DNA of 7,953 nt from an archaeon. GTDB taxonomy: Archaea > Iainarchaeota > Iainarchaeia > Iainarchaeales > CSSED10-239. Below are positions 243-7,953 of the stretch, piece after piece (the stretch's first letter is position 1; every line of letters starts with the position of its first letter). Below the pieces are notes generated by a model, which did not search any database, was not told the origin of the DNA, and worked only from the letters and a program-made list of their open reading frames with translations. The position numbers and the translations under genes are program-made. The stretch spans positions 1-7,953 of the forward strand of contig JBAYPN010000029.1 of NCBI GenBank assembly GCA_041677685.1, read 5' to 3'.

Positions 243-1613
243 CTAAAATATCTCTCTATTATTTTCTAAAAGAATTTCTCTAATCTCTTTAATATCTGTA
301 ATATTTTTCTCCACAATTAATCTTAATGTTCTAATTCTATTCTCTATAATTTCTTTAAGTTTATTTTTAGATATGTTAAGTTTATCACAAATTTCTTCTA
401 AAAAATGTGAACTCATAAAATTAACTTTACTTTCGGATTCTACATTATCATTTAAATACACATTATTAAAGGTAATGTTTCCTATTCTTTTAATTTCTGT
501 AATTTCTGAAACATATCTGTAGATTTTTCCATCTATTATTTTTTTATTAACTGTAATTATTACATTTAATAATTTAATATATACTGTTTCTATATTCATA
601 GGACTAGATACTAACTTGTCAACTAAGTCTACACTGTTGTTTGCATGAATTGTAGATAAACAACCTTGATGCCCTGTGTCCATAGCCATAAACAATGCTT
701 TTGCTTCTTTCCCTCTAGTTTCTCCAATAATGATTCTGTCAGGTCTCATTCTTAAAATATTTATTGTTATGTTGTACAGACTATCAGGATCAGCAATATT
801 ACTTACAAGACTAACATTATTTTCAAACATAGAAATATCAATTTCTCTAGTGTCCTCTACACCAATAACTCTATTATCTTTAGATATAAAATGAAGTAAG
901 ATATTTAGAAAGGTGGTCTTTCCAGTGCTTGTCCCACCACAAACAAAAAGATTTGCAGGTTTTATTTTAAGACCGTCAATAACGATCCATAAGTAAGCAG
1001 CAACCTCGTAGTTTATTGTTTTATTATTAATTAAGTCAACAATTGTAAGAGGCCTTTTAAGAAATTTTCTAATTGTAATTAAATTAAATTTAGAAATATT
1101 TTTAGAAACAATATTTATTCTTGAATTGTCAGGCAAAATTCCATCTATAAAATCTCTATCTATAAAGTCTTTAGAGATTGTTTTTTTAATTTTTTTTAAT
1201 AACAATTCATAATTTTTTTCTGTAAAAGACACATCTGTTTTATAGTGTTCATTTTTTCTTGTGATTACAAATATTTCATTATAATTGTTTATCATTATTT
1301 CTTCTAGATTGTCATCATCTATTAATAAAGTTAATTCTCTATAACCAATAAGATAATTAAGTATATATTTACAGAAATCTTTTTGTAGATCTTTTTTTAA
1401 ATAATCTAATTTTTCTAAAATATTTTTTTTAGAATGTATTGTGCTGTTGTCAAGTCCAGTTAGAAAATCTACAATTTTATTTTTATCTTTCTTTTGGAGA
1501 TTTATATTTAGGTAATATTTATTAATATCATTAACATTAACATTTTTAGATATTATTTTTTGTAATATATTATTATATTCTTTATTTTCATAAATGTATT
1601 TTATTTCAGTCAT
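243..1613 (-). CDS. Type II/IV secretion-family hexameric ATPase (FlaI/ArlI / PilB / VirB11 / CpaF-like)
   Basis: 456-aa ORF. Walker A is GGTSTGKTT. Walker B / Asp box region is RPDRIIIGETRGKEA. His box is TGHQGCLSTIHAN. The N-terminal domain carries LEEIMINNYNEIFV and ITIRKF, which are typical of this family. Sub-family and substrate (pilus, archaellum or other) cannot be decided from the sequence alone. Confidence 0.9.
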   Translation of the reverse strand: MTEIKYIYENKEYNNILQKIISKNVNVNDINKYYLNINLQKKDKNKIVDFLTGLDNSTIHSKKNILEKLDYLKKDLQKDFCKYILNYLIGYRELTLLIDDDNLEEIMINNYNEIFVITRKNEHYKTDVSFTEKNYELLLKKIKKTISKDFIDRDFIDGILPDNSRINIVSKNISKFNLITIRKFLKRPLTIVDLINNKTINYEVAAYLWIVIDGLKIKPANLFVCGGTSTGKTTFLNILLHFISKDNRVIGVEDTREIDISMFENNVSLVSNIADPDSLYNITINILRMRPDRIIIGETRGKEAKALFMAMDTGHQGCLSTIHANNSVDLVDKLVSSPMNIETVYIKLLNVIITVNKKIIDGKIYRYVSEITEIKRIGNITFNNVYLNDNVESESKVNFMSSHFLEEICDKLNISKNKLKEIIENRIRTLRLIVEKNITDIKEIREILLENNREIF

Positions 1614-1681: not shown

Positions 1682-3517
1682 TTATTCAACAGTTACAGAC
1701 TTTGCTAAGTTTCTTGGTTTGTCTATTTCGCAATTTTTATGATCTGCAATGTAGTATGCTAATAATTGCATAGCAATCACATTTACAAAAGTTGTAAACT
1801 GGGTATCCATTTTTGGTACAAAAATAGTATGGTCTGATAATTTTAGAATTTGTTCATCTCCTTTTGTAGCAATGGAAATAATTATTCCTCCTCTTGCTTT
1901 AATTTCTTGCATATTTGATATTATTTTGTCGTAGTTTTTATTTTTATTTATAATAAAAACAGAAGGCATATTCTTGTCAATTAAAGCAATTGGTCCATGT
2001 TTCATTTCTGCTGCAGGATAACCTTCTGCATGTATGTAGGAAATCTCTTTTAGCTTAAGTGCACCTTCAAGAGCTATTGGGTAATTGATTCCTCTTCCAA
2101 GATATAAAAAGTTTTTAGAATTTTTAAATTTACTTGCAATCTCTTTAATTTTTTTAGATTCATTTAAAACAATTTTAATTTTTTCAGGCAAATTGTTTAA
2201 ATTATTTATAATTTCTTTAGTTTCTTTTTCTGTAATTTTATTTAATTTTTGCCCAATAAATAAAGTAAGTAACCACAAGGACACAAGTTGATTTGTAAAA
2301 GCTTTAGTTGAGGCAACCCCAATTTCAGGTCCTGCTCTTGTATAGATTCCACAATCTGAAGTTCTTGCAATAGTTGAGCCAACAACATTAACAATTCCAA
2401 AGATTTTTGCTTTTTTTTCTTTAGCTTCCTTAATTGCTGCAAGGGTGTCTGCTGTTTCTCCTGATTGACTAATTGCAATTACTAAGCTATTTTCATCAAT
2501 TATTGGATTTCTATATCTAAACTCAGATGCATAATCTACTTCAACACTAATTCTTAAATATTTTTCAAGAACAAATTTTCCAATTAATGCACAATGCCAA
2601 GAAGTTCCACAAGCAACAATTACAATTTTATTTATGTTTTTAAAAAATTCTTTTGTTAAGCATATTCCTCCTAAGACAATTCTATTATTTTTAAAATCAA
2701 TTCTTCCTGAGAGTGCATCTTTTATTTTTTCTGGTTGTTCAAAAATCTCTTTTAACATAAAATGTTTATAACCACTTTTTTCAATTTGATCAAGAGAGGT
2801 CTTAATTTTATGTATTTCTTTATTTATTTTTTGATTTTTTAGGCTTGTAATTTCATAATTAGTATCTGTAATTTTTGCAATTTCAAAATCATCTAAATAG
2901 ATTACATTTTTTGTATACTCTAATATTGCAGAAGTGTCACTTGCAACAAAGAACTCATTTTTTCCAATTCCAATAATTATTGGAGAGCCTTTTCTTGCAA
3001 CAATGATTTCTCTTTTGTCTTTAGATAAAACAAGCAAGCCATAAGTTCCAGTAATTTGTGTAAGTGCTTTTAAAACAGCATCTTTTAGATTATTAGATTT
3101 TTTATAGAATTTGTTAACAAGAAAGGCAATTACTTCAGAATCAGTTTGGGTTTTAAAAACGTAGCCTTCTTTTTGAAGAAGTAACTTTATAGTATCGTAA
3201 TTTTCAATAATTCCGTTATGCACAATTGCTAGATTATTATCTTCTGAGAAATGAGGGTGGGCATTAATCTCATTTGGAATTCCATGTGTTGCCCACCTAG
3301 TATGTGCAATTCCTATTGTGGAATTTAGATTATTTTCTTTTTTTATTCTTTTTTCAAGATCAACTATTTTTCCTTTTGCTTTTATTATCTTTAATAGATT
3401 ATTATCATGTATGCAGACACCACAAGAATCATACCCTCTATATTCTAATCTTTTAAGTCCATTTATTAAAATTGGTATTGCTTCTTTTTTACCTATGTAT
3501 CCAATTATTCCACACAT
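1682..3517 (-). CDS. glmS: Glutamine--fructose-6-phosphate aminotransferase (isomerising), GlmS
   Basis: 611-aa ORF. The N-terminus MCGIIGYIG carries the Ntn amidotransferase nucleophile Cys2. SIS-domain motifs ACGTSWH and SQSGETADTL are present. The canonical C-terminus LAKSVTVE is present, and the length is typical of GlmS. Confidence 0.97.
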   Translation of the reverse strand: MCGIIGYIGKKEAIPILINGLKRLEYRGYDSCGVCIHDNNLLKIIKAKGKIVDLEKRIKKENNLNSTIGIAHTRWATHGIPNEINAHPHFSEDNNLAIVHNGIIENYDTIKLLLQKEGYVFKTQTDSEVIAFLVNKFYKKSNNLKDAVLKALTQITGTYGLLVLSKDKREIIVARKGSPIIIGIGKNEFFVASDTSAILEYTKNVIYLDDFEIAKITDTNYEITSLKNQKINKEIHKIKTSLDQIEKSGYKHFMLKEIFEQPEKIKDALSGRIDFKNNRIVLGGICLTKEFFKNINKIVIVACGTSWHCALIGKFVLEKYLRISVEVDYASEFRYRNPIIDENSLVIAISQSGETADTLAAIKEAKEKKAKIFGIVNVVGSTIARTSDCGIYTRAGPEIGVASTKAFTNQLVSLWLLTLFIGQKLNKITEKETKEIINNLNNLPEKIKIVLNESKKIKEIASKFKNSKNFLYLGRGINYPIALEGALKLKEISYIHAEGYPAAEMKHGPIALIDKNMPSVFIINKNKNYDKIISNMQEIKARGGIIISIATKGDEQILKLSDHTIFVPKMDTQFTTFVNVIAMQLLAYYIADHKNCEIDKPRNLAKSVTVE

Positions 3518-3526
3518 ATCTTAATT

Positions 3527-4561
3527 TTATTTTTTATTTTCTGATATTAGTTTATTATATCTTTTTTGAACATAGAAAATGCTTTTGTTGTGAGTTAATG
3601 AGTCTTCTACAATTCTTTCTATCCCACTAATAATGTTTGTGGGGATGGTGGTTATTTTTTCTTTTTGTGTGTATTTTGAAAGTAATTTTTCTATTCTTGA
3701 AAAATATTTTTCTCCAAAAACATTTAATTTTTGTCTACGTTCTTCTTTTGAGATTTTTGATACATAAATCTTTTGATATAAGGGGTATTTATCAGTTACT
3801 GATTTTTTATTTAAAATAGATTTTTTTGGAGTTTTTGGAATTTCTTTCTTTTGCACATTAGCTTTTGGTTTATTTTCAAATAACCCTTTAATACTTGCTA
3901 GACCTGTCTTTACAAGGATTGTTGAAACTGCTAAGAATCTATTTTTAGTTTGCAATGTTTTAACTGACTCATAATTTTTTAAAATAAAATTAATATTTTT
4001 TTCAGGTATTCTTTTAGCAATTTCAAATAATTTTTTGTACTCATAAGGTGTAATTAATTTTTCAATTTTATTTAAAGGTAGAGATAACAAATAATTTGGG
4101 GTCATTTTTGCAACTTCTCCAAAATTATCTTTAAAGACAATTCTTTTTCTACGTATTTCTCTACTAATTCTTAAAGAAATTTCAGCAGTTATATCTTTTA
4201 ATATTTTTTTGTCTTTTGGAGGAAGTAGTTTATGGATGTTTTGTAATTCTAATATATTTAAATTAAATTTATTAATTTTTTTACCATCAAAATAATGAAA
4301 TTCTTTTGAAGTAGTTGTTTTATTTAATTTTTTTAATTCTTCTTTAATTTCTTTTGTTTTATTTCTTTTATATTTTCCTAATTTTTTGTTTACACTTCTG
4401 TTTTTTAATTCAGTATTTAGCTCTTTATTAATTGTAAGCTCTGTAATTGATTTTACTGGTTTTGTAACTGTCTTTGGTTTTTTTGTTCCTAGTTTCATAT
4501 ATATTTTCACTTTTGTAATTTTTAATTGTAAGCTTGATATTTTTATTATTATACAATACAT
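3527..4561 (-). CDS. Hypothetical, strongly basic Lys-rich soluble protein; no recognisable family
   Basis: 344-aa ORF with no stops in a genome where stop triplets are very frequent. Its TAA stop lies 9 nt upstream of the glmS ATG, suggesting co-transcription. No hydrophobic segment and no catalytic motif that I recognise. The alternative start at ATG 4498 (MKLGTKKPK...) seems more natural than the odd first 21 residues MYCIIIKISSLQLKITKVKIY. Confidence 0.7.
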   Translation of the reverse strand: MYCIIIKISSLQLKITKVKIYMKLGTKKPKTVTKPVKSITELTINKELNTELKNRSVNKKLGKYKRNKTKEIKEELKKLNKTTTSKEFHYFDGKKINKFNLNILELQNIHKLLPPKDKKILKDITAEISLRISREIRRKRIVFKDNFGEVAKMTPNYLLSLPLNKIEKLITPYEYKKLFEIAKRIPEKNINFILKNYESVKTLQTKNRFLAVSTILVKTGLASIKGLFENKPKANVQKKEIPKTPKKSILNKKSVTDKYPLYQKIYVSKISKEERRQKLNVFGEKYFSRIEKLLSKYTQKEKITTIPTNIISGIERIVEDSLTHNKSIFYVQKRYNKLISENKK

Positions 4562-4635: not shown

Positions 4636-5250
4636 ATGGCAAAATTAATTACTCCTGAACAAGAATTTGAAAATCCAAATGCTTTTTATACTCAACAAGA
4701 AGTAAAGAGGTATGAAAATAATTCTGGGATGAAAAGATCTCAAATTACTTTGACCAAAATTGCATTATCAATTAGCGGTATTAATCTAAATAATAAAAAA
4801 ATATTTATTTTAGATGTTGGTTGTGGGACTGGTTTTTCTTTAGAATATTTAAAAGATTTAGGTTTTATTAATCTAAAGGGTATTGATCCATCTTTAGAAA
4901 TGATAAAGATTGCAAAAGATAAGGGCTTTTTAGTAGAGGATTTAGGTTTTGAAGATCTAAATAAAATTAAAAATAAATTTGATCTAATAATTTCTATCTC
5001 TGCATTACAATGGGTAATTGCAAACAAAAGGGAACTACTTTTAAAGAATTTAATTAAAAAAATTGGAAAGGGTTTATATAATTTATTAAATGTAAATGGA
5101 AAAGCAGTAATTCAGTTTTATCCTGAGTCAGAGATCGTCTTTAAAGATATATCTTCTTCTTTTAATAGATGTGGTTTTTCTGTTCAAGAATACATCTATA
5201 ATAGTGATTCTTTAAAGAAAAGGAAGTATTTTTTAATACTTTTTAAATAA
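4636..5250 (+). CDS. Class I SAM-dependent methyltransferase, Bud23/WBSCR22-like (candidate small-subunit rRNA guanine-N7 methyltransferase), catalytic domain only
   Basis: 204-aa ORF with SAM motif I ILDVGCGTGFS. Other blocks match the Bud23/WBSCR22 conserved blocks as I recall them. FYTQQEVKRYENNSGMKRSQITLTKIAL compares with ELFYDETEARKY..NSRM..IQ..M..RALELL. ISISALQWV compares with ISISAVQWL. KAVIQFYPE compares with RAVLQLYPE. The C-terminus KRKYFLILFK compares with KKFYLCLF. The Lys-rich C-terminal extension of eukaryotic Bud23 is absent. Confidence 0.8.
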   Translation: MAKLITPEQEFENPNAFYTQQEVKRYENNSGMKRSQITLTKIALSISGINLNNKKIFILDVGCGTGFSLEYLKDLGFINLKGIDPSLEMIKIAKDKGFLVEDLGFEDLNKIKNKFDLIISISALQWVIANKRELLLKNLIKKIGKGLYNLLNVNGKAVIQFYPESEIVFKDISSSFNRCGFSVQEYIYNSDSLKKRKYFLILFK

Positions 5251-5448: not shown

Positions 5449-5544
5449 ATGACTATTAAAAAAAATAAAAGAAAAGTTGTTATTAAATGGTTATTAATCT
5501 CTGTAATTTTTTTAGGAATTGCATTTTTAGCAACAGCCTATGCA
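5449..5544 (+). other. Predicted Sec-type signal peptide of paralog 1 (cleavage after AYA), or an uncleaved signal anchor
   Basis: The n-region KKNKRK is followed by the 20-residue hydrophobic stretch VVIKWLLISVIFLGIAFLAT and then A-Y-A|S-G. There is no [KR]-[GA] prepilin-type (class III) site before the hydrophobic stretch. Confidence 0.55.
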
Positions 5545-6663
5545 AGTGGTACTAAAGTTGTAGATGATGAGATCTCATTACAATGGGTTTCTCACACTGA
5601 ATATTGGAAAAATGATTCAGCAGCAACAATTATTAGATTAGCAGATTATAGAGGGAATCCAATTGCTGTTAATGAATGTAGGGTTACAATTTTAAATCCT
5701 GATAAAACAGTTTTTGTAGATAATCAATTAATGACAGAATCAAATATTGCAGGGAATTGGTATAGAACAGATTCACTTGTTGATGCTCCTTTGGGAACAT
5801 TTGAACAAGAAGTGACTTGTACTAGAGGGAATCAAACAATTAAGAGTTCACAGTCTTTCCACTTAAATCCAGCTTTAGAGCAAATTAATACATTAACAGG
5901 TATGACTGATAGTTTAAATTTAGAATTATCTGATGTTAATTTATCAATAACTGGGTTAGTTGAAGAAACAGGACAAGAAATTAGTGCAAATGTTACAAAT
6001 CTAAATACTTCCTTAAATAACATCTTAAATGATGTAAACAATAGTATGGTTGCTCAATTTGAAAATACAAATTCAAATTTAAACACTGCACTTTCAAATG
6101 TAGAGGTTTCTGTAAATGGAACTGTAACTTCAACAGGCACAGCTATTCAATCACAGATTACTGATTTAAATACTTCTTTGTCTCAATTAATTAACAATCT
6201 AGTAATTGGAGACTTAACTGTTCAATTAGATGGATTATTAGAAAGTTTGACAGATCAAATTGTAAGTGTTAAAGAAGACACAAATTGGTTAGTAACTCAC
6301 GCTATGAATGATTCAGACATGGATGAAATAGAAGCAAGATTTAATTCAATTGACAACAATTTACAATTGTTAGAACAATTTTGTTCAACACAAGATACTA
6401 ACAGTAGTGCTTTGTGCCAAGAAATATACAATATAAAATCAGCAATAGCAGTTATGGACTCTGAGCAACAAACAAAATTAGATGAAATAAATACTACTAC
6501 AGTAAATACTTGGCAATTGTTAAGTGGAGATGTAACCACAAGTATAAATAGTTTATTATCTGATATTGGAATAATTAAAGAACAGACAACAGACATTAAT
6601 TCTACTGTTCATGAAATATTAGATAGTCAACAATCAGAAATACAAGTAAGAATTATTTCATAG
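5449..6663 (+). CDS. Secreted or envelope protein (paralog 1): signal peptide, two-Cys beta-sandwich-like module, then a long N/S/T-rich coiled-coil-like tail; uncharacterised family
   Basis: 404-aa ORF. The N-terminus MTIKKNKRKVVIKWLLISVIFLGIAFLATAYA-SG has a basic n-region, a hydrophobic core and an A-x-A site. Residues about 45-140 align by eye with the next gene and include Cys77 and Cys124. Residues about 141-404 are helical and heptad-like with recurring LNT(S/A)L motifs, and are acidic and Lys-poor, unlike the cytoplasmic proteins in this window. Confidence 0.85.
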   Translation: MTIKKNKRKVVIKWLLISVIFLGIAFLATAYASGTKVVDDEISLQWVSHTEYWKNDSAATIIRLADYRGNPIAVNECRVTILNPDKTVFVDNQLMTESNIAGNWYRTDSLVDAPLGTFEQEVTCTRGNQTIKSSQSFHLNPALEQINTLTGMTDSLNLELSDVNLSITGLVEETGQEISANVTNLNTSLNNILNDVNNSMVAQFENTNSNLNTALSNVEVSVNGTVTSTGTAIQSQITDLNTSLSQLINNLVIGDLTVQLDGLLESLTDQIVSVKEDTNWLVTHAMNDSDMDEIEARFNSIDNNLQLLEQFCSTQDTNSSALCQEIYNIKSAIAVMDSEQQTKLDEINTTTVNTWQLLSGDVTTSINSLLSDIGIIKEQTTDINSTVHEILDSQQSEIQVRIIS

Positions 6664-6723
6664 GTTTTTGTGGAATAATAATTTTGTTAAAAAAGAAGAA
6701 TTTGGTTTTTAGAAATAAAGACC

Positions 6724-6748
6724 TTTTCTTTTTTTAATTTATTTTTTT
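6724..6748 (+). terminator. Oligo-T tracts (T4, T7, T7) downstream of paralog 1; candidate archaeal-type terminator
   Basis: CCTTTTCTTTTTTTAATTTATTTTTTT begins about 60 nt after the TAG stop (6661..6663). Together with the separate TATA-like box at 6768, this suggests the two paralogs are transcribed separately. Confidence 0.3.
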
Positions 6749-6767
6749 AATTTAAATTTTAGTTTTA

Positions 6768-6779
6768 GTTTTAAAAAAG
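6768..6779 (+). promoter_or_regulatory. GTTTTAAAAAAG motif (TATA-like) upstream of paralog 2
   Basis: Identical 12-mer to 5418..5429. Its core is centred about 26-27 nt before ATG 6800, the same spacing as in paralog 1. This is my reason for preferring ATG 6800 over TTG 6791 as the start. Confidence 0.3.
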
Positions 6780-6799
6780 GAACAATTATTTTGAAAAGT

Positions 6800-7615
6800 A
6801 TGGATGAACATAAAACACACAAGAAAATGCCTTCTGACTATAGAAGATTTAATTTTAGTAATCCTTTTTCTAAAAATAGAAATTTGTTAAGTGTAATTAT
6901 TATAATTTTAATTATTTTAGTAATAGTTTTTTTATTATTTTTCTTTTTAAGAAATAAGAATGCAACTCCAGGAATAAAGATGGTTTCAGGAACAGAATAT
7001 ATCTCTAATGAAGAAGGACAGGTAATTATAAGATTAGAAAATAGTATTGGAAATCCAATTGATGATGCAAATTGTATGATGTCTTTATTATATCCAGACA
7101 AATCCTTTTTTTTAATAGATATACAGATGGCTCCTACAACAGTTCCTGGTAACTATTATCATTCTTTTATAACTCCTGAAAAGGAAGGAATTTATGAGGA
7201 GCATATTGTTTGTAGTGTTCCTGTGGGGAATGATAATTTTAGAGAACTTTACATCTCTTCTTCTTTCCATGTTTCAACTGGACTTAATCTAATTGTGGAA
7301 GTCTCTAGATCACAAAGGGAACAATATGAAGATCTTGTTAATAGAGTAAATGCTTTAGATTCAAATTTGACTGCAAAGATTAATTCTGTTGATTCTAGAG
7401 TATATAATGTTCAAACATTTATTGATAATAATGTTATGGATGAAATTGATAATTTGTCAGTAGATATTGGAGACATTAATCAAAGTATAAGTAGTTCGAT
7501 GGATGGAATTGAGGGTAGGTTAAACACAACTATGCTTAATAACTTTGATGAACTTTACCAGAAATTTAGAGATAGTTATAATGCTATGGCTGGTGTTTTT
7601 GGTGGTGGAGAATAG
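6800..7615 (+). CDS. Membrane-anchored envelope protein (paralog 2): basic cytoplasmic N-terminus, one TM helix, two-Cys beta-sandwich-like module, shorter coiled-coil-like tail; uncharacterised family
   Basis: The ORF is open from 6791 (TTG, 274 aa in the supplied track), and I prefer ATG 6800 (271 aa). The TM segment is LLSVIIIILIILVIVFLLFFFL. The module GTEYISNEEGQVIIRLENSIGNPIDDANC...YPDKSFF...PGNYY...HIVC...SSFHV is paralogous to 5449..6663. The tail has heptad-like spacing, for example LVNRVNALDSNLTAKINSVDSRV. Confidence 0.8.
   Translation: MDEHKTHKKMPSDYRRFNFSNPFSKNRNLLSVIIIILIILVIVFLLFFFLRNKNATPGIKMVSGTEYISNEEGQVIIRLENSIGNPIDDANCMMSLLYPDKSFFLIDIQMAPTTVPGNYYHSFITPEKEGIYEEHIVCSVPVGNDNFRELYISSSFHVSTGLNLIVEVSRSQREQYEDLVNRVNALDSNLTAKINSVDSRVYNVQTFIDNNVMDEIDNLSVDIGDINQSISSSMDGIEGRLNTTMLNNFDELYQKFRDSYNAMAGVFGGGE
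6884..6949 (+). other. Predicted N-terminal transmembrane anchor of paralog 2 (N-in, type II topology)
   Basis: A 22-residue uninterrupted hydrophobic stretch is preceded by a K/R/H-rich segment of about 30 residues (positive-inside rule). No A-x-A-like cleavage site follows it. Confidence 0.6.
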
Positions 7616-7845: not shown

Positions 7846-7953
7846 GAAAAATTAAAATTAAGATAAATTAAAATTAAGATAAATTAAAATTAAGATAAAT
7901 TAAAATTAAGATAAATTAAAATTAAGATAAATTAAAATTAAGATAAATTAAAA
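7846..7953. repeat. 16-bp perfect tandem repeat (unit GATAAATTAAAATTAA), at least 6.7 copies, truncated by the window end
   Basis: G occurs at 7846, 7862, 7878, 7894, 7910, 7926 and 7942, exactly every 16 nt. The copies from 7862 onward are identical, and the first copy (7846..7861) differs by one base (GAAAAATT...). Stop codons occur in all frames, so the array is non-coding. Confidence 0.95.

What the first reader, a model, noticed from the sequence alone, without database searches (positions are those of the whole stretch)
5449..7615. Tandem paralogous pair of fibrous envelope proteins with no recognisable family; candidate surface or cell-contact structure
Two adjacent same-strand genes share a module of about 95 residues that aligns by eye at roughly one-third identity. 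Paralog 1 reads TEYWKNDSAATIIRLADYRGNPIAVNECRVTILNPDKTVFV..M....AGNWY...G.FEQEVTC......SFHL. Paralog 2 reads TEYISNEEGQVIIRLENSIGNPIDDANCMMSLLYPDKSFFL..M....PGNYY...GIYEEHIVC......SFHV. The two cysteines are spaced 47 and 46 residues apart, consistent with a disulfide-stapled beta-sandwich. The xIIRLxxxxGNPIxxAxC pattern resembles Ig-like or prealbumin-like adhesin domains. Both proteins then run into long acidic, Asn/Ser/Thr/Gln-rich, heptad-like helical tails of about 260 and about 110 residues. Anchoring differs between them. Paralog 1 has a Sec signal with an AYA-SG site, while paralog 2 has a basic cytoplasmic head plus a 22-residue TM helix. My hypothesis is that they form a homo- or hetero-oligomeric coiled-coil fibre displayed on the cell surface, tethered through paralog 2. 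In a reduced, probably episymbiotic archaeon this is the kind of protein expected to mediate host attachment. Tandem duplication with divergent tails is also typical of fast-evolving interaction loci.
Basis: partly seen in the sequence, partly recalled or inferred. Interest (0 to 1): 0.75.

Follow-up and report, generated by a model that had tools for sequence, protein, structure and literature searches.

The report
Conserved DPANN membrane-anchored surface stalk pair
Two neighbouring genes of a tiny DPANN archaeon encode an ancient, well-conserved pair of related membrane-anchored surface proteins, each an antibody-like fold followed by a long rod built on 11-residue repeats; they belong to an undescribed family, probably form a stalk on the cell surface, and their function is still untested.

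Summary
ORFs 5449-6663 (p1, 404 aa) and 6791-7615 (p2, 274 aa) are true paralogs: BLASTP E=1e-15 and family profile-profile E=1e-36. Each has a basic N-terminus, a hydrophobic helix of about 21 residues, a beta-sandwich with an invariant Cys pair, and an acidic N/S/T/Q-rich helical tail.

- AlphaFold2 and Foldseek give a generic Ig/macroglobulin-like sandwich.
- The tails are hendecad (3.67 residues per turn), not heptad.
- p1's shaft alternates helices with predicted beta-hairpins. It varies in steps of about 110 aa (404 to 866 aa) and ends in a conserved, Cys-stapled helical tip.
- The pair is not fast-evolving. The duplication predates several DPANN lineages.
- The p1-to-p2 order recurs in 19 of 24 genome loci, with both genes adjacent in 20.
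- Both proteins are more conserved than the neighbouring methyltransferase.
- Contexts are housekeeping, not proviral. Linkage to type IV-filament ATPases is sporadic.
- The sandwich defines an unnamed domain (1073 cluster representatives). It also occurs in tandem arrays in large secreted or anchored archaeal proteins, some with a SlaB-like layout.

Best reading: a constitutive hetero-oligomeric envelope stalk. Host attachment is possible but untested.

The parts
5449..6663 (+). p1 gene (404 aa): the variable-length member of the pair
   Evidence: ORF. An identical protein, P0001, is found on 8 contigs. The family comprises 65 cluster representatives of 400-866 aa.
5449..5550 (+). p1 residues 1-34: basic N-terminus, about 21-residue uncharged helix, and the conserved AY-x-x-G motif (signal anchor or cleavable signal)
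   Evidence: AF2 helix 3-39. Family statistics: N-side net charge +4, G34 invariant, -3 residue small or aliphatic in 48/58.
5575..5865 (+). p1 residues 43-139: beta-sandwich domain with invariant C77/C124 and the motifs SHTEYW, P-D-K, GNWY, YEQEV and SQSFH
   Evidence: AF2 pLDDT 83-96, seven strands. Foldseek matches macroglobulin, filamin and Ig-like domains. Invariant columns are listed.
5869..6267 (+). p1 residues 141-273: segmented shaft of helices alternating with two predicted beta-hairpins (160-187, 214-239); 11/55/110-residue repeat structure
   Evidence: AF2 secondary structure. Autocorrelation peaks at 11, 22, 33, 55 and 110 residues. Homologs insert blocks of about 110 aa here. This is the least conserved part, at 45-54% identity.
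6268..6660 (+). p1 residues 274-404: conserved distal tip. It has helices 291-312 and 321-373 joined by a loop between invariant C312 and C323, invariant W280, a conserved sequon at N384, and a conserved C-terminal IIS.
   Evidence: Alignment A2. 61-66% identical in relatives. The N384 sequon is present in 56/58 sequences. AF2 result; pLDDT falls below 50 after residue 374.
6664..6790 (.). 127-bp A+T-rich spacer between p1 and p2
   Evidence: Sequence. The gap ranges from an 11-bp overlap to 521 bp across 20 loci, and is mostly 10-130 bp on the same strand. Co-transcription was not tested.
6791..7615 (+). p2 gene (274 aa from TTG 6791; 271 aa if ATG 6800): the constant-length member of the pair
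   Evidence: ORF. The family comprises 104 cluster representatives of 190-320 aa, many 55-70% identical.
6791..6952 (+). p2 residues 1-54: basic cytoplasmic head and transmembrane helix 30-54
   Evidence: AF2 helix 30-54. N-side net charge +3 in the family. No conserved Gly/Ala before the helix, so there is no class III signal-peptide site.
6971..7276 (+). p2 residues 61-162: beta-sandwich domain with invariant C95/C141 and the motifs SGTEY, GQ, P-D-K, GNYY, YEE and SSSFHVS
   Evidence: AF2 pLDDT 91-98. Foldseek hits to filamin, macroglobulin MG and CARDB domains at E about 3e-5. 19 invariant columns.
7280..7603 (+). p2 residues 164-271: a single long helix with hendecad periodicity
   Evidence: AF2 helix 164-271, pLDDT above 90 to about residue 220. 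Best period 3.65 residues, reached by 0/2000 shuffles.

Best explanation
p1 and p2 are an old, vertically inherited pair of paralogous envelope proteins of DPANN archaea.

Each inserts in the cytoplasmic membrane N-in/C-out through its N-terminal hydrophobic helix. This is inferred from charge bias and from the relatives of the domain. Directly outside the membrane sits a beta-sandwich with an invariant Cys pair. It belongs to an unnamed domain family that archaea also use in tandem arrays in large secreted or anchored surface proteins. Its presence, conservation and distribution are shown here.

The sandwich is followed by a rod whose hydrophobic core repeats every 11 residues, which is also shown. 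Tetrabrachion shows the same periodicity.

I infer that the homologous sandwiches and proximal helices of p1 and p2 pack into a hetero-oligomeric stalk. In this model p2 (constant length, helix of about 16 nm) forms the base. p1 continues as a segmented helix/beta-hairpin shaft whose length is set by the number of modules of about 110 residues. p1 presents a conserved, probably disulfide-stapled, probably N-glycosylated helical tip at a lineage-specific distance from the membrane.

The tip and base are as conserved as housekeeping proteins, and the genes lie in housekeeping contexts in one locus per genome record. The structure is therefore most likely a constitutive part of the envelope that docks a conserved partner. 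That partner could be the cell's own outer layer or other surface proteins, or a generic feature of partner cells. It is unlikely to be a rapidly evolving host-specific adhesin.
For: - Paralogy.
- Topology: basic N-side and uncharged segments of about 21 residues in both families.
- Fold: AF2 models with pLDDT 83.7 and 77.5. Foldseek hits the sandwich only, matching MG, filamin, CARDB and Ig-like domains.
- Extracellular use of the domain: a domain profile finds 1073 representatives. Of 120 new representatives, 43 carry 2-4 tandem copies and nearly all of those have an N-terminal hydrophobic segment. Sixteen also have a C-terminal TM. Median sequon density is 3.2 per 100 aa.
- One relative, P0181, has a signal, three domains, a helical stalk and a C-terminal TM. 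This is the SlaB layout (PMC5744192).
- Hendecad periodicity.
- Quantised p1 length with a conserved tip.
- Pair conservation: both genes adjacent in 20 of 24 genome loci (p1-to-p2 in 19, order inverted in one), spanning Woesearchaeota, Pacearchaeota, Iainarchaeum/Forterrea and Nanoarchaeia; also in an Aenigmarchaeota contig.
- Conservation higher than the neighbouring methyltransferase.
- Housekeeping contexts.
- Conserved sequons at N241 and N384.
Against: - No oligomer was modelled or measured, so hetero-oligomerisation rests on adjacency, co-occurrence and homology.
- p2 occurs without an adjacent p1 in 4 of 24 genome loci (L014, L017, L026, L031), so p1 is either encoded elsewhere or dispensable.
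- The predicted beta-hairpins in p1 have only moderate confidence (pLDDT 62-84). They could be artefacts of a monomer prediction.
- Disulfide formation could not be checked because no coordinates were available.
- Overall sequon counts are not significantly above what composition predicts (P about 0.1).
- A two-fold range of p1 length among close relatives fits a protruding fibre better than a fixed-height S-layer strut.
- There are no expression or localisation data.
Confidence: 0.55

Rival explanations
1. Host-attachment fibre. The p1/p2 coiled-coil fibre is the adhesin by which the episymbiont binds its host, and the variable tail tunes host range.
For: - Surface-exposed, membrane-anchored fibrous architecture.
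- The lineage is DPANN, and its cultivated members need cell contact with a host (PMC11329633).
- Variation in p1 repeat number from 404 to 866 aa is typical of adhesive fibres.
- The domain recurs in large surface proteins.
Against: - The distal tip and both sandwiches are more conserved than a neighbouring cytoplasmic enzyme.
- The family keeps the same motifs across DPANN orders with very different likely hosts.
- No lectin, protease or other binding domain is present.
- One locus per genome record in housekeeping context, not a variable island.
Confidence: 0.2
2. Accessory part of a type IV filament (Tad/archaeal pilus-like) machine. p1 and p2 would be pilin-like or ArlF/ArlG-like or PilN/PilO-like membrane proteins that align or anchor a filament driven by the nearby T2SSE-family ATPase.
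For: - In L005, L011 and L012 the order is p1-p2-ATPase, followed by two T2SSF-like genes.
- A FlaI-like ATPase lies 3.8 kb away in the window.
- L026 and L031 have an ATPase 2.3 kb upstream of p2.
- An N-terminal hydrophobic helix plus a beta-sandwich is also the layout of archaeal pilins and of ArlF/ArlG (my own knowledge).
- p2 gives a weak Pilin_N hit, E=0.011.
Against: - ATPase linkage is seen in only 6 of 26 non-redundant loci. It is lost even among close relatives: L008, L009, L010 and L013 lack it.
- In the window the ATPase is on the other strand, behind GlmS.
- Pilin_N scores 17 bits against a cut-off of 25.2.
- There is no conserved Gly/Ala cleavage position before the helix.
- No archaellin, ArlH or ArlJ gene is present, and there are no FlaF/FlaG hits in the Pfam, NCBIfam or top-50 Foldseek lists.
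Confidence: 0.1
3. Membrane-active protein. The 11-mer amphipathic repeats bind lipid surfaces as exchangeable apolipoproteins do, or the Cys-stapled helical hairpin at the p1 tip acts like the chain-reversal region of a class I fusion protein to open cytoplasmic bridges to a host.
For: - The family profile hits apolipoprotein A-IV, A-I and E chains with E down to 7e-14.
- Pfam Apolipoprotein and Baculo_PEP_C give sub-threshold hits.
- There are very weak hits to spike S2, Ebola HR1-HR2 and syncytin heptad regions.
- The tip is helix-loop(Cys...Cys)-helix.
Against: - The matches cover only the repeat region and are explained by shared 11/22-residue periodicity and composition.
- Pfam Apolipoprotein scores of 25-62 bits are far below the 90-bit cut-off.
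- The tail is strongly acidic and poor in Lys/Arg (net charge -30). That is unlike class A lipid-binding helices (my own knowledge).
- No hydrophobic fusion-peptide-like segment exists outside the N-terminal anchor (sequence).
- Foldseek finds no fusion-protein match.
Confidence: 0.05
4. Prophage or virus tail-fibre genes inside an integrated element.
For: - Fibrous architecture.
- Weak PHROG hits to tape-measure families, E=5e-4 to 7e-3.
- The domain also occurs in ORFan-rich gene clusters, L035 and L036.
Against: - No viral hallmark genes lie around the pair in any of the contexts examined. Flanking genes are GlmS, a methyltransferase, IleRS, CTP synthase, DNA polymerases and GTPases.
- Synteny is stable across orders.
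- p1 has no PHROG hit.
- BFVD matches are to generic Ig-like domains only.
- The L035 and L036 neighbours are signal-peptide or TM-anchored proteins without PHROG hallmarks.
Confidence: 0.02

Closest known systems
SlaB, the membrane-anchored stalk of the Sulfolobales S-layer (with SlaA as canopy)
   Same: - Extracellular beta-sandwich domain(s) plus a long coiled-coil rod plus a single TM anchor.
- Heavily sequon-bearing.
- Encoded next to its partner gene in a two-gene unit (PMC5744192).
- A multi-domain relative of the p1/p2 sandwich, P0181, has exactly the SlaB order: signal, sandwiches, helical stalk, C-terminal TM.
   Different: - In p1 and p2 the anchor is N-terminal and the sandwich is membrane-proximal, so the rod points away from the membrane. 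This is the reverse of SlaB.
- The two partners are paralogs of each other, not a stalk plus a canopy.
- No sequence match appears in the PDB sequence searches, and no SlaB entry is among the 50 Foldseek matches listed for each model.
- No SlaA-like canopy gene lies nearby.
Tetrabrachion stalk of Staphylothermus marinus (right-handed coiled coil with 11-residue repeats)
   Same: An archaeal surface protein whose rod is built on undecad/hendecad repeats (PMC5744192). The p1 and p2 tails show the same 11/3 periodicity.
   Different: - Tetrabrachion is a single huge polypeptide forming a 70-nm tetramer with beta-rich arms and a C-terminal anchor.
- p1 and p2 are small, N-anchored and paralogous.
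- p1's rod is interrupted by predicted beta-hairpins.
- Oligomer state is unknown here.
ArlF/ArlG (FlaF/FlaG) of the archaellum, and archaeal type IV pilins
   Same: - Adjacent paralogous genes.
- An N-terminal hydrophobic helix followed by an Ig-like beta-sandwich outside the membrane (my own knowledge).
- Occasional adjacency to a FlaI/TadA-type ATPase.
   Different: - No arl operon.
- No family-profile match: Pilin_N scores 17 bits against a 25.2 cut-off.
- No class III cleavage motif.
- ArlF/ArlG and pilins lack the helical tail of 110-700 residues.
- ATPase linkage is inconsistent.
Exchangeable apolipoproteins (A-I, A-IV, E) and Pfam Baculo_PEP_C
   Same: Long helical regions with 11/22-residue periodicity. 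These give the only sequence-level hits for the tails.
   Different: - The hits are confined to the repeats and fall below Pfam cut-offs for the window proteins.
- One long homolog, P0009, nominally passes Baculo_PEP_C at 42.9 bits against 38 by summing three weak stretches.
- Charge pattern, anchoring, the sandwich and the tip have no counterpart in these families. This is resemblance by periodicity, not membership.
Macroglobulin (MG), filamin and CARDB-type Ig-like domains
   Same: These are the best structural matches to the sandwich: Foldseek E of about 3e-5 to 5e-4, TM-score relative to the target 0.46-0.76.
   Different: - Sequence identity is 6-18%.
- The invariant motif set (S-x-T-E-Y, C, P-D/N-K, G-N-aromatic, Y/F-E, C, S-F-H) is specific to this family.
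- No Pfam or NCBIfam model detects it.

Membership tests
SlaB-type S-layer anchor | C-terminal transmembrane helix with N-terminal Sec signal (rod membrane-proximal, sandwiches distal) | tested here: not met
   The only hydrophobic segment is N-terminal in both proteins, and the sandwich follows it directly.
SlaB-type S-layer anchor | Beta-sandwich domain(s) plus an extended coiled coil in an extracellular glycoprotein | tested here: met
   AF2 models. 12 and 6 sequons. The domain is used in secreted or anchored proteins.
SlaB-type S-layer anchor | Sequence or structural similarity to SlaB, and an adjacent canopy (SlaA-like) gene | tested here: not met
   No PDB sequence hit, and no SlaB entry among the top 50 Foldseek matches listed. 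Neighbours are a methyltransferase, GlmS and an ATPase.
Tetrabrachion-like right-handed coiled coil | 11-residue (undecad) hydrophobic repeat | tested here: met
   Best period is 3.65-3.67 residues, reached by 0/2000 shuffles. There is no 3.5 signal.
Tetrabrachion-like right-handed coiled coil | Parallel tetramer, right-handed supercoil | not testable with these tools
   No multimer prediction and no coordinates were available.
Archaeal type IV pilin / archaellin | Class III signal peptide: short basic leader, conserved Gly/Ala/Ser at -1, cleaved before the hydrophobic helix | tested here: not met
   No conserved small residue before the helix in the 74-sequence p2 alignment or the 58-sequence p1 alignment. 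Pilin_N scores E=0.011, 17 bits, against a cut-off of 25.2.
ArlF/ArlG (FlaF/FlaG) | Encoded in an arl operon with archaellin, ArlH, ArlI and ArlJ; matches the family profiles | tested here: not met
   No such genes in the window or in L001. No NCBIfam or Pfam hit. The FlaX hit of a homolog, at E=0.0086 and 15.7 bits against a 225-bit cut-off, lies in the coiled coil only.
Type IV filament system accessory protein | Consistent operonic linkage with T2SSE ATPase and T2SSF platform genes | tested here: not met
   Linkage is seen in 6 of 26 non-redundant loci and is lost among close relatives.
Apolipoprotein A1/A4/E (PF01442) | Score above the Pfam gathering threshold (90 bits) | tested here: not met
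   p1 scores 25.4 bits. Long homologs score 54-62 bits.
Baculovirus PEP C-terminal domain (PF04513) | Score above the Pfam gathering threshold (38 bits) | tested here: not met
   p1 scores 26.1 bits and p2 17.9 bits. Homolog P0009 reaches 42.9 bits only by adding three repeat matches.
Class I viral fusion protein | Hydrophobic fusion peptide, HR1, disulfide loop, HR2, C-terminal TM; trimer of hairpins | tested here: not met
   - A helix-loop(C312...C323)-helix is present.
- There is no fusion-peptide-like segment.
- The anchor is N-terminal.
- The periodicity is hendecad, not heptad.
- Only marginal sequence hits appear, E from 0.005 to above 0.1.
Prophage tail fibre | Located within a provirus with hallmark genes; matches viral fibre families | tested here: not met
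   Housekeeping neighbours. No PHROG hit for p1 and only weak tape-measure-like coiled-coil hits for p2. BFVD matches are generic Ig-like domains.

The most novel reading that the evidence does not exclude
The p1/p2 stalk could be the conserved DPANN device that makes and holds intimate membrane contact with a partner cell. In this reading the variable-length shaft spans the symbiont's own envelope. The conserved Cys-stapled helical-hairpin tip engages a generic feature of the partner membrane or envelope. That would be a first step towards the cytoplasmic bridges seen in several DPANN-host pairs. It would make this a new, cell-encoded contact or fusion machinery built on a new domain.
Probability: 0.07. 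Interest if true: 0.9.

Novelty: new variant of a known kind. Interest (0 to 1): 0.45.

Why it matters
DPANN archaea have almost no characterised envelope components, and most of their lineage-specific families are unannotated membrane or extracellular proteins (PMC8204110).

This pair is conserved across several DPANN orders. It is easy to recognise from its invariant motifs. It also defines a beta-sandwich domain, not detected by the Pfam-A and NCBIfam copies searched here, that recurs in many large archaeal surface proteins.

That provides three things:
- a concrete marker and target for cryo-ET, proteomics and antibody work on how these cells build their surface and touch other cells;
- a natural series of rods of quantised length (404 to 866 aa) for relating gene length to envelope geometry;
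- another natural example of hendecad-based rods outside Crenarchaeota.

Tried and rejected
Searches that gave nothing above threshold:
- Curated family searches (Pfam, NCBIfam, PHROGs) for both proteins and for long homologs returned only coiled-coil or periodicity noise.
- PDB sequence searches with single sequences and with three profiles returned only apolipoprotein-type repeat matches. The sandwich profile found nothing better than E=0.097.
- Foldseek against the PDB (both models) and BFVD (p1 only) matched only the generic Ig/MG-like sandwich. Nothing matched the shaft or tip.
- The third word-indexed homolog search, using the domain alignment, returned only 13 short proteins and added little.
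- Rfam found no RNA family in the window.
- Literature searches found no description of this family. The papers read cover other DPANN surface proteins.

Ideas considered and rejected or left open:
- Functional link to the upstream methyltransferase: rejected. It is adjacent only in the nine closest loci. By my recollection it looks like a Bud23-type rRNA methyltransferase, which I did not test.
- Operon with the FlaI-like ATPase: rejected as a general rule.
- Sequon enrichment as proof of glycosylation: not significant overall, P about 0.1. Only two conserved sequons in p1 stand out.
- The small ORFs upstream of the pair in L032 looked like pilins. They are the antisense strand of a 396-aa multi-pass membrane protein gene.
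- NEQ255/cls.004306, a DPANN-specific secreted protein listed by Makarova et al. 2019 (PMC6393860), may or may not be related. I had no sequence to test.
- I could not identify PF28217, which is precomputed for a few homologs, because it is absent from the local Pfam copy.

Full report
**What is in the window.** The 7953-bp window has about 25% G+C. It carries six substantial ORFs:
- 243-1613 (-): a FlaI/TadA-like T2SSE ATPase.
- 1682-3517 (-): GlmS.
- 3527-4561 (-): a Lys-rich ORF of 344 aa with no family.
- 4636-5250 (+): a class I SAM methyltransferase.
- 5449-6663 (+): p1, 404 aa.
- 6791-7615 (+): p2, 274 aa.

An identical p1 is found on eight metagenomic contigs. The longest, L001 (10.9 kb), extends the window by a Beta_propel-domain protein next to the ATPase.

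**Checking the observation.**
- p1 and p2 align with E=1e-15, 27% identity over 191 residues.
- The two family alignments match each other with hhalign probability 99.9% and E=1e-36.
- The quoted motifs, the Cys spacing (47 and 46 residues), the tail lengths, the acidity (net charge -30 and -12) and the N/S/T/Q richness are all as described.

Three details need correcting.

First, the tails are not heptad-like. The hydrophobic Fourier spectrum peaks at 3.65-3.67 residues, which is 11/3. None of 2000 shuffles reaches the observed value in p1, p2 or long homologs. At 3.5 residues there is nothing. Sequence autocorrelation peaks at 11, 22, 33, 55 and 110 residues.

Second, the proposed AYA|SG signal-peptidase site is not conserved. 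What is conserved is Y31 and an invariant G34, with a small or aliphatic residue at -3 in 48 of 58 sequences. Cleavage after G34 is therefore possible. However, the uncharged segment is about 21 residues long in both families, which is the length of a membrane anchor.

Third, the start of p2 may be TTG 6791 or ATG 6800.

**Structure.**
- *p2 model.* AlphaFold2 with the family alignment (mean pLDDT 83.7) gives a TM helix at 30-54, a seven-to-eight-strand sandwich at 61-162 (pLDDT 91-98), and one continuous helix at 164-271.
- *p1 model.* The model (mean pLDDT 77.5) gives an N-terminal helix at 3-39 and a sandwich at 43-139. A shaft follows in which helices (141-154, 189-207, 244-284) alternate with two long beta-hairpins (160-187, 214-239). 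It ends in a helix (291-312), loop, helix (321-373) unit whose loop is bracketed by the invariant C312 and C323.
- *Hairpins.* The hairpin segments do show alternating hydrophobic residues (for example VNLSITGLV), and a 2.2-residue harmonic appears in long homologs. Their confidence is only moderate, and a monomer prediction of an oligomeric fibre can mislead.
- *Structure searches.* Foldseek against the PDB and BFVD matches only the sandwich, to macroglobulin MG, filamin, CARDB and other Ig-like domains, at 6-18% identity.

No specific adhesin family is implied.

**Relatives and conservation.**
- *Family sizes.* p1 has 65 cluster representatives and p2 has 104. None is annotated. The named ones come from Woesearchaeota, Nanoarchaeia, Aenigmarchaeota and 'ainarchaeum'.
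- *Genome loci.* A scan of one genome per species returned 24 loci, one per genome record. They include the complete genome of Ca. Forterrea multitransposorum, plus Iainarchaeum, Pacearchaeota, Woesearchaeota and Nanoarchaeia. Local G+C ranges from 0.21 to 0.54.
- *Adjacency.* p1 lies immediately upstream of p2 in 19 of these 24 loci. One further locus (L019) has the two genes adjacent in inverted order, and one of the 19 has p1-p2-p1. Four loci have p2 alone. An Aenigmarchaeota contig has the same arrangement with one small ORF between the genes. The duplication is therefore old.
- *Invariant positions.* Both families are strongly constrained. p2 has 19 invariant positions across 74 sequences. 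p1 has 20 across 58, including W280, C312 and C323 in the tip, and ends in a conserved IIS.
- *Identity against six relatives.* The figures are:

| Region | Identity |
|---|---|
| p2 sandwich | 70-75% |
| p2 tail | 63-73% |
| p1 sandwich | 69-73% |
| p1 tip | 61-66% |
| p1 mid-shaft | 45-54% |
| Neighbouring methyltransferase | 56-59% |

- *What varies.* The number of shaft modules varies, giving length classes of about 404, 515, 640, 746 and 865 residues. These are steps of roughly 110 residues.

This contradicts the 'fast-evolving interaction locus' idea.

**Genomic context.**
- The methyltransferase is upstream only in the nine closest loci.
- A T2SSE ATPase lies within a few kilobases in 6 of 26 non-redundant loci.
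- In L005, L011 and L012 the order is p1-p2-ATPase, followed by two genes with sub-threshold T2SSF matches.
- The equally close L008, L009, L010 and L013 lack this arrangement. In the window the ATPase is on the opposite strand, behind GlmS.
- In more distant genomes the neighbours are DNA polymerases, a GTPase, a Hjc resolvase, tRNA-related genes and the like.

There is no provirus. There is also no consistent multi-gene system beyond the pair itself.

**A wider domain family.** A profile of the sandwich from both families (A3) was read against 1.84 billion cluster representatives.
- It found 1073 proteins at E<=0.001 and 447 at E<=1e-10.
- Of the 120 new representatives among the best 150, 72 are p1- or p2-like: a single domain just after an N-terminal hydrophobic segment.
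- A further 43 carry two to four tandem copies in proteins of 250-2137 residues. Nearly all of these have an N-terminal hydrophobic segment, and 16 also have a C-terminal TM helix.
- Median sequon density is 3.2 per 100 residues, and the C-terminal IIS/VIS ending recurs.
- Eight of the multi-domain proteins have no Pfam match at all.
- P0181 reads signal, three domains, helical stalk, C-terminal TM. P0179 has four domains and a short hendecad-like tail ending in VIS.
- The genomic neighbours of P0179 and P0181 are other signal-peptide or TM-anchored ORFans without viral hallmarks.

The sandwich is thus a recurrent extracellular building block of archaeal surface proteins. This is the best evidence here that the C-terminal parts of p1 and p2 face outward.

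**How it most likely works.**

Shown:
- Paralogy.
- An N-terminal anchor with an N-in charge bias.
- A sandwich with a conserved Cys pair.
- A hendecad rod.
- Quantised p1 length with a conserved tip.
- Conserved adjacency and high sequence conservation.

Inferred:
- The two proteins assemble through their homologous sandwiches and proximal helices into a hetero-oligomeric stalk.
- p2's helix of 108 residues would span about 16 nm if straight.
- p1 carries a conserved tip to a distance set by its module number.
- Tip and base are conserved like housekeeping proteins, and the genes sit in one locus per genome record in housekeeping surroundings. I therefore favour a constitutive envelope element that docks a conserved partner, either the cell's own outer layer or surface proteins, or a generic feature of partner cells. 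Confidence is 0.55 for the structural model.
- The wide range of p1 lengths fits a protruding fibre better than a fixed-height S-layer strut. The docking partner is left open for that reason.

**Rivals.**
- *Host-specific adhesin (0.2).* Fits the fibre architecture and the repeat variation, but not the conservation.
- *Type IV-filament accessory protein (0.1).* Suggested by three independent cases of ATPase proximity and by the pilin-like layout. It fails the tests for profile match, cleavage motif and consistent linkage.
- *Lipid-binding or fusogenic role (0.05).* Rests on apolipoprotein-type periodicity hits (E to 7e-14) and on the Cys-bracketed helical hairpin. The tail is strongly acidic, there is no fusion-peptide-like segment, and no structural match exists.
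- *Prophage fibre (0.02).* Effectively excluded.

**Comparison with known systems.**
- The nearest known kinds are the archaeal S-layer stalk proteins. SlaB has two or three beta-sandwiches, a trimeric coiled coil and a C-terminal TM, and is encoded next to its partner. Tetrabrachion has a rod built on 11-residue repeats (PMC5744192).
- p1 and p2 work like these in the sense of a membrane-anchored sandwich-plus-rod glycoprotein. They are not members. The anchor is at the opposite end, so the sandwich is membrane-proximal. The partners are paralogs of each other. No sequence match appears in the PDB searches, no SlaB entry is among the Foldseek matches listed, and no canopy gene is adjacent.
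- The pair also fails the membership tests for archaeal pilins, ArlF/ArlG, Apolipoprotein, Baculo_PEP_C and class I fusion proteins (see the table).

**Novelty and verdict.**
- The families appear in databases only as hypothetical proteins, and I found no description in the papers searched.
- Castelle et al. 2021 report modules of unannotated, mostly membrane or extracellular families shared by Woese- and Pacearchaeota (PMC8204110). These genes probably belong there.
- I rate this a new variant of a known kind: a reversed-topology, paralog-paired, hendecad stalk built on an undescribed surface domain.
- It is of moderate interest (0.45). It is a solid, conserved and experimentally approachable DPANN envelope component, but its function, and any role in host contact, is still untested.

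Noticed in passing
window 7849-7953 (array begins about 7795): A perfect 16-bp tandem repeat (AAATTAAAATTAAGAT, about 6.5 copies) runs to the end of the window. The longer contig L001 ends shortly after this region and shows only a degenerate 2.5-copy version, so the repeat probably breaks assemblies.
   Followed up: partly
window 3527-4561 (-): A Lys-rich ORF of 344 aa (the gene caller gives 323 aa) has no Pfam, NCBIfam or PHROG match. It is conserved only on the near-identical contigs.
   Followed up: partly
window 243-1613 (-); L001 879-3056 (-): A FlaI/TadA-like T2SSE ATPase (NCBIfam FlaI model at 213 bits, below its 550-bit cut-off) has no adjacent T2SSF/ArlJ platform gene. Its downstream neighbour in L001 is a 725-aa Beta_propel (PF09826) protein with an N-terminal hydrophobic segment.
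   Followed up: partly
window 4636-5250 (+); L005, L008-L014: The SAM methyltransferase upstream of p1 is syntenic in the nine closest loci. By my recollection its N-terminus resembles Bud23-type rRNA methyltransferases. This was not tested, and it is probably unrelated to p1/p2.
   Followed up: no
L005 12897-16170: A T2SSE ATPase has an N-terminal 4Fe-4S dicluster-like domain (Fer4_11, E=3e-5, below its cut-off). It is followed by two half-size T2SSF-like genes of 247 and 221 aa. This looks like an unusual minimal type IV-filament motor directly downstream of p2 in three related loci.
   Followed up: partly
L035 3950-12474; L036 39-10340: These are gene clusters made almost entirely of signal-peptide or C-terminally anchored, sequon-rich ORFans. 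They include proteins with 1-4 copies of the p1/p2 sandwich domain, and may be 'surface-protein islands' of unidentified archaea. No PHROG hallmarks were found.
   Followed up: partly
P0009 (L005 10001-11929): The 642-aa p1 homolog passes the Pfam gathering threshold for Baculo_PEP_C (42.9 against 38 bits) by summing three weak repeat matches. This is a likely source of misleading automatic annotation.
   Followed up: yes
L022, L023, L024: Three MAG records titled 'uncultured Methanosarcinales archaeon' carry the DPANN-type p1-p2 pair at 32-33% G+C. The bins may be mislabelled or contaminated.
   Followed up: no
L029 8770-12031: One Woesearchaeota locus has p1-p2-p1, a second p1 copy after p2. 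In L019 the order is p2 then p1, with overlapping genes.
   Followed up: no
P0026, P0032, P0039, P0040, P0042, P0084: The precomputed Pfam annotation lists PF28217.1 for a few homologs. That model is not in the local Pfam copy, so I could not tell what it is.
   Followed up: partly
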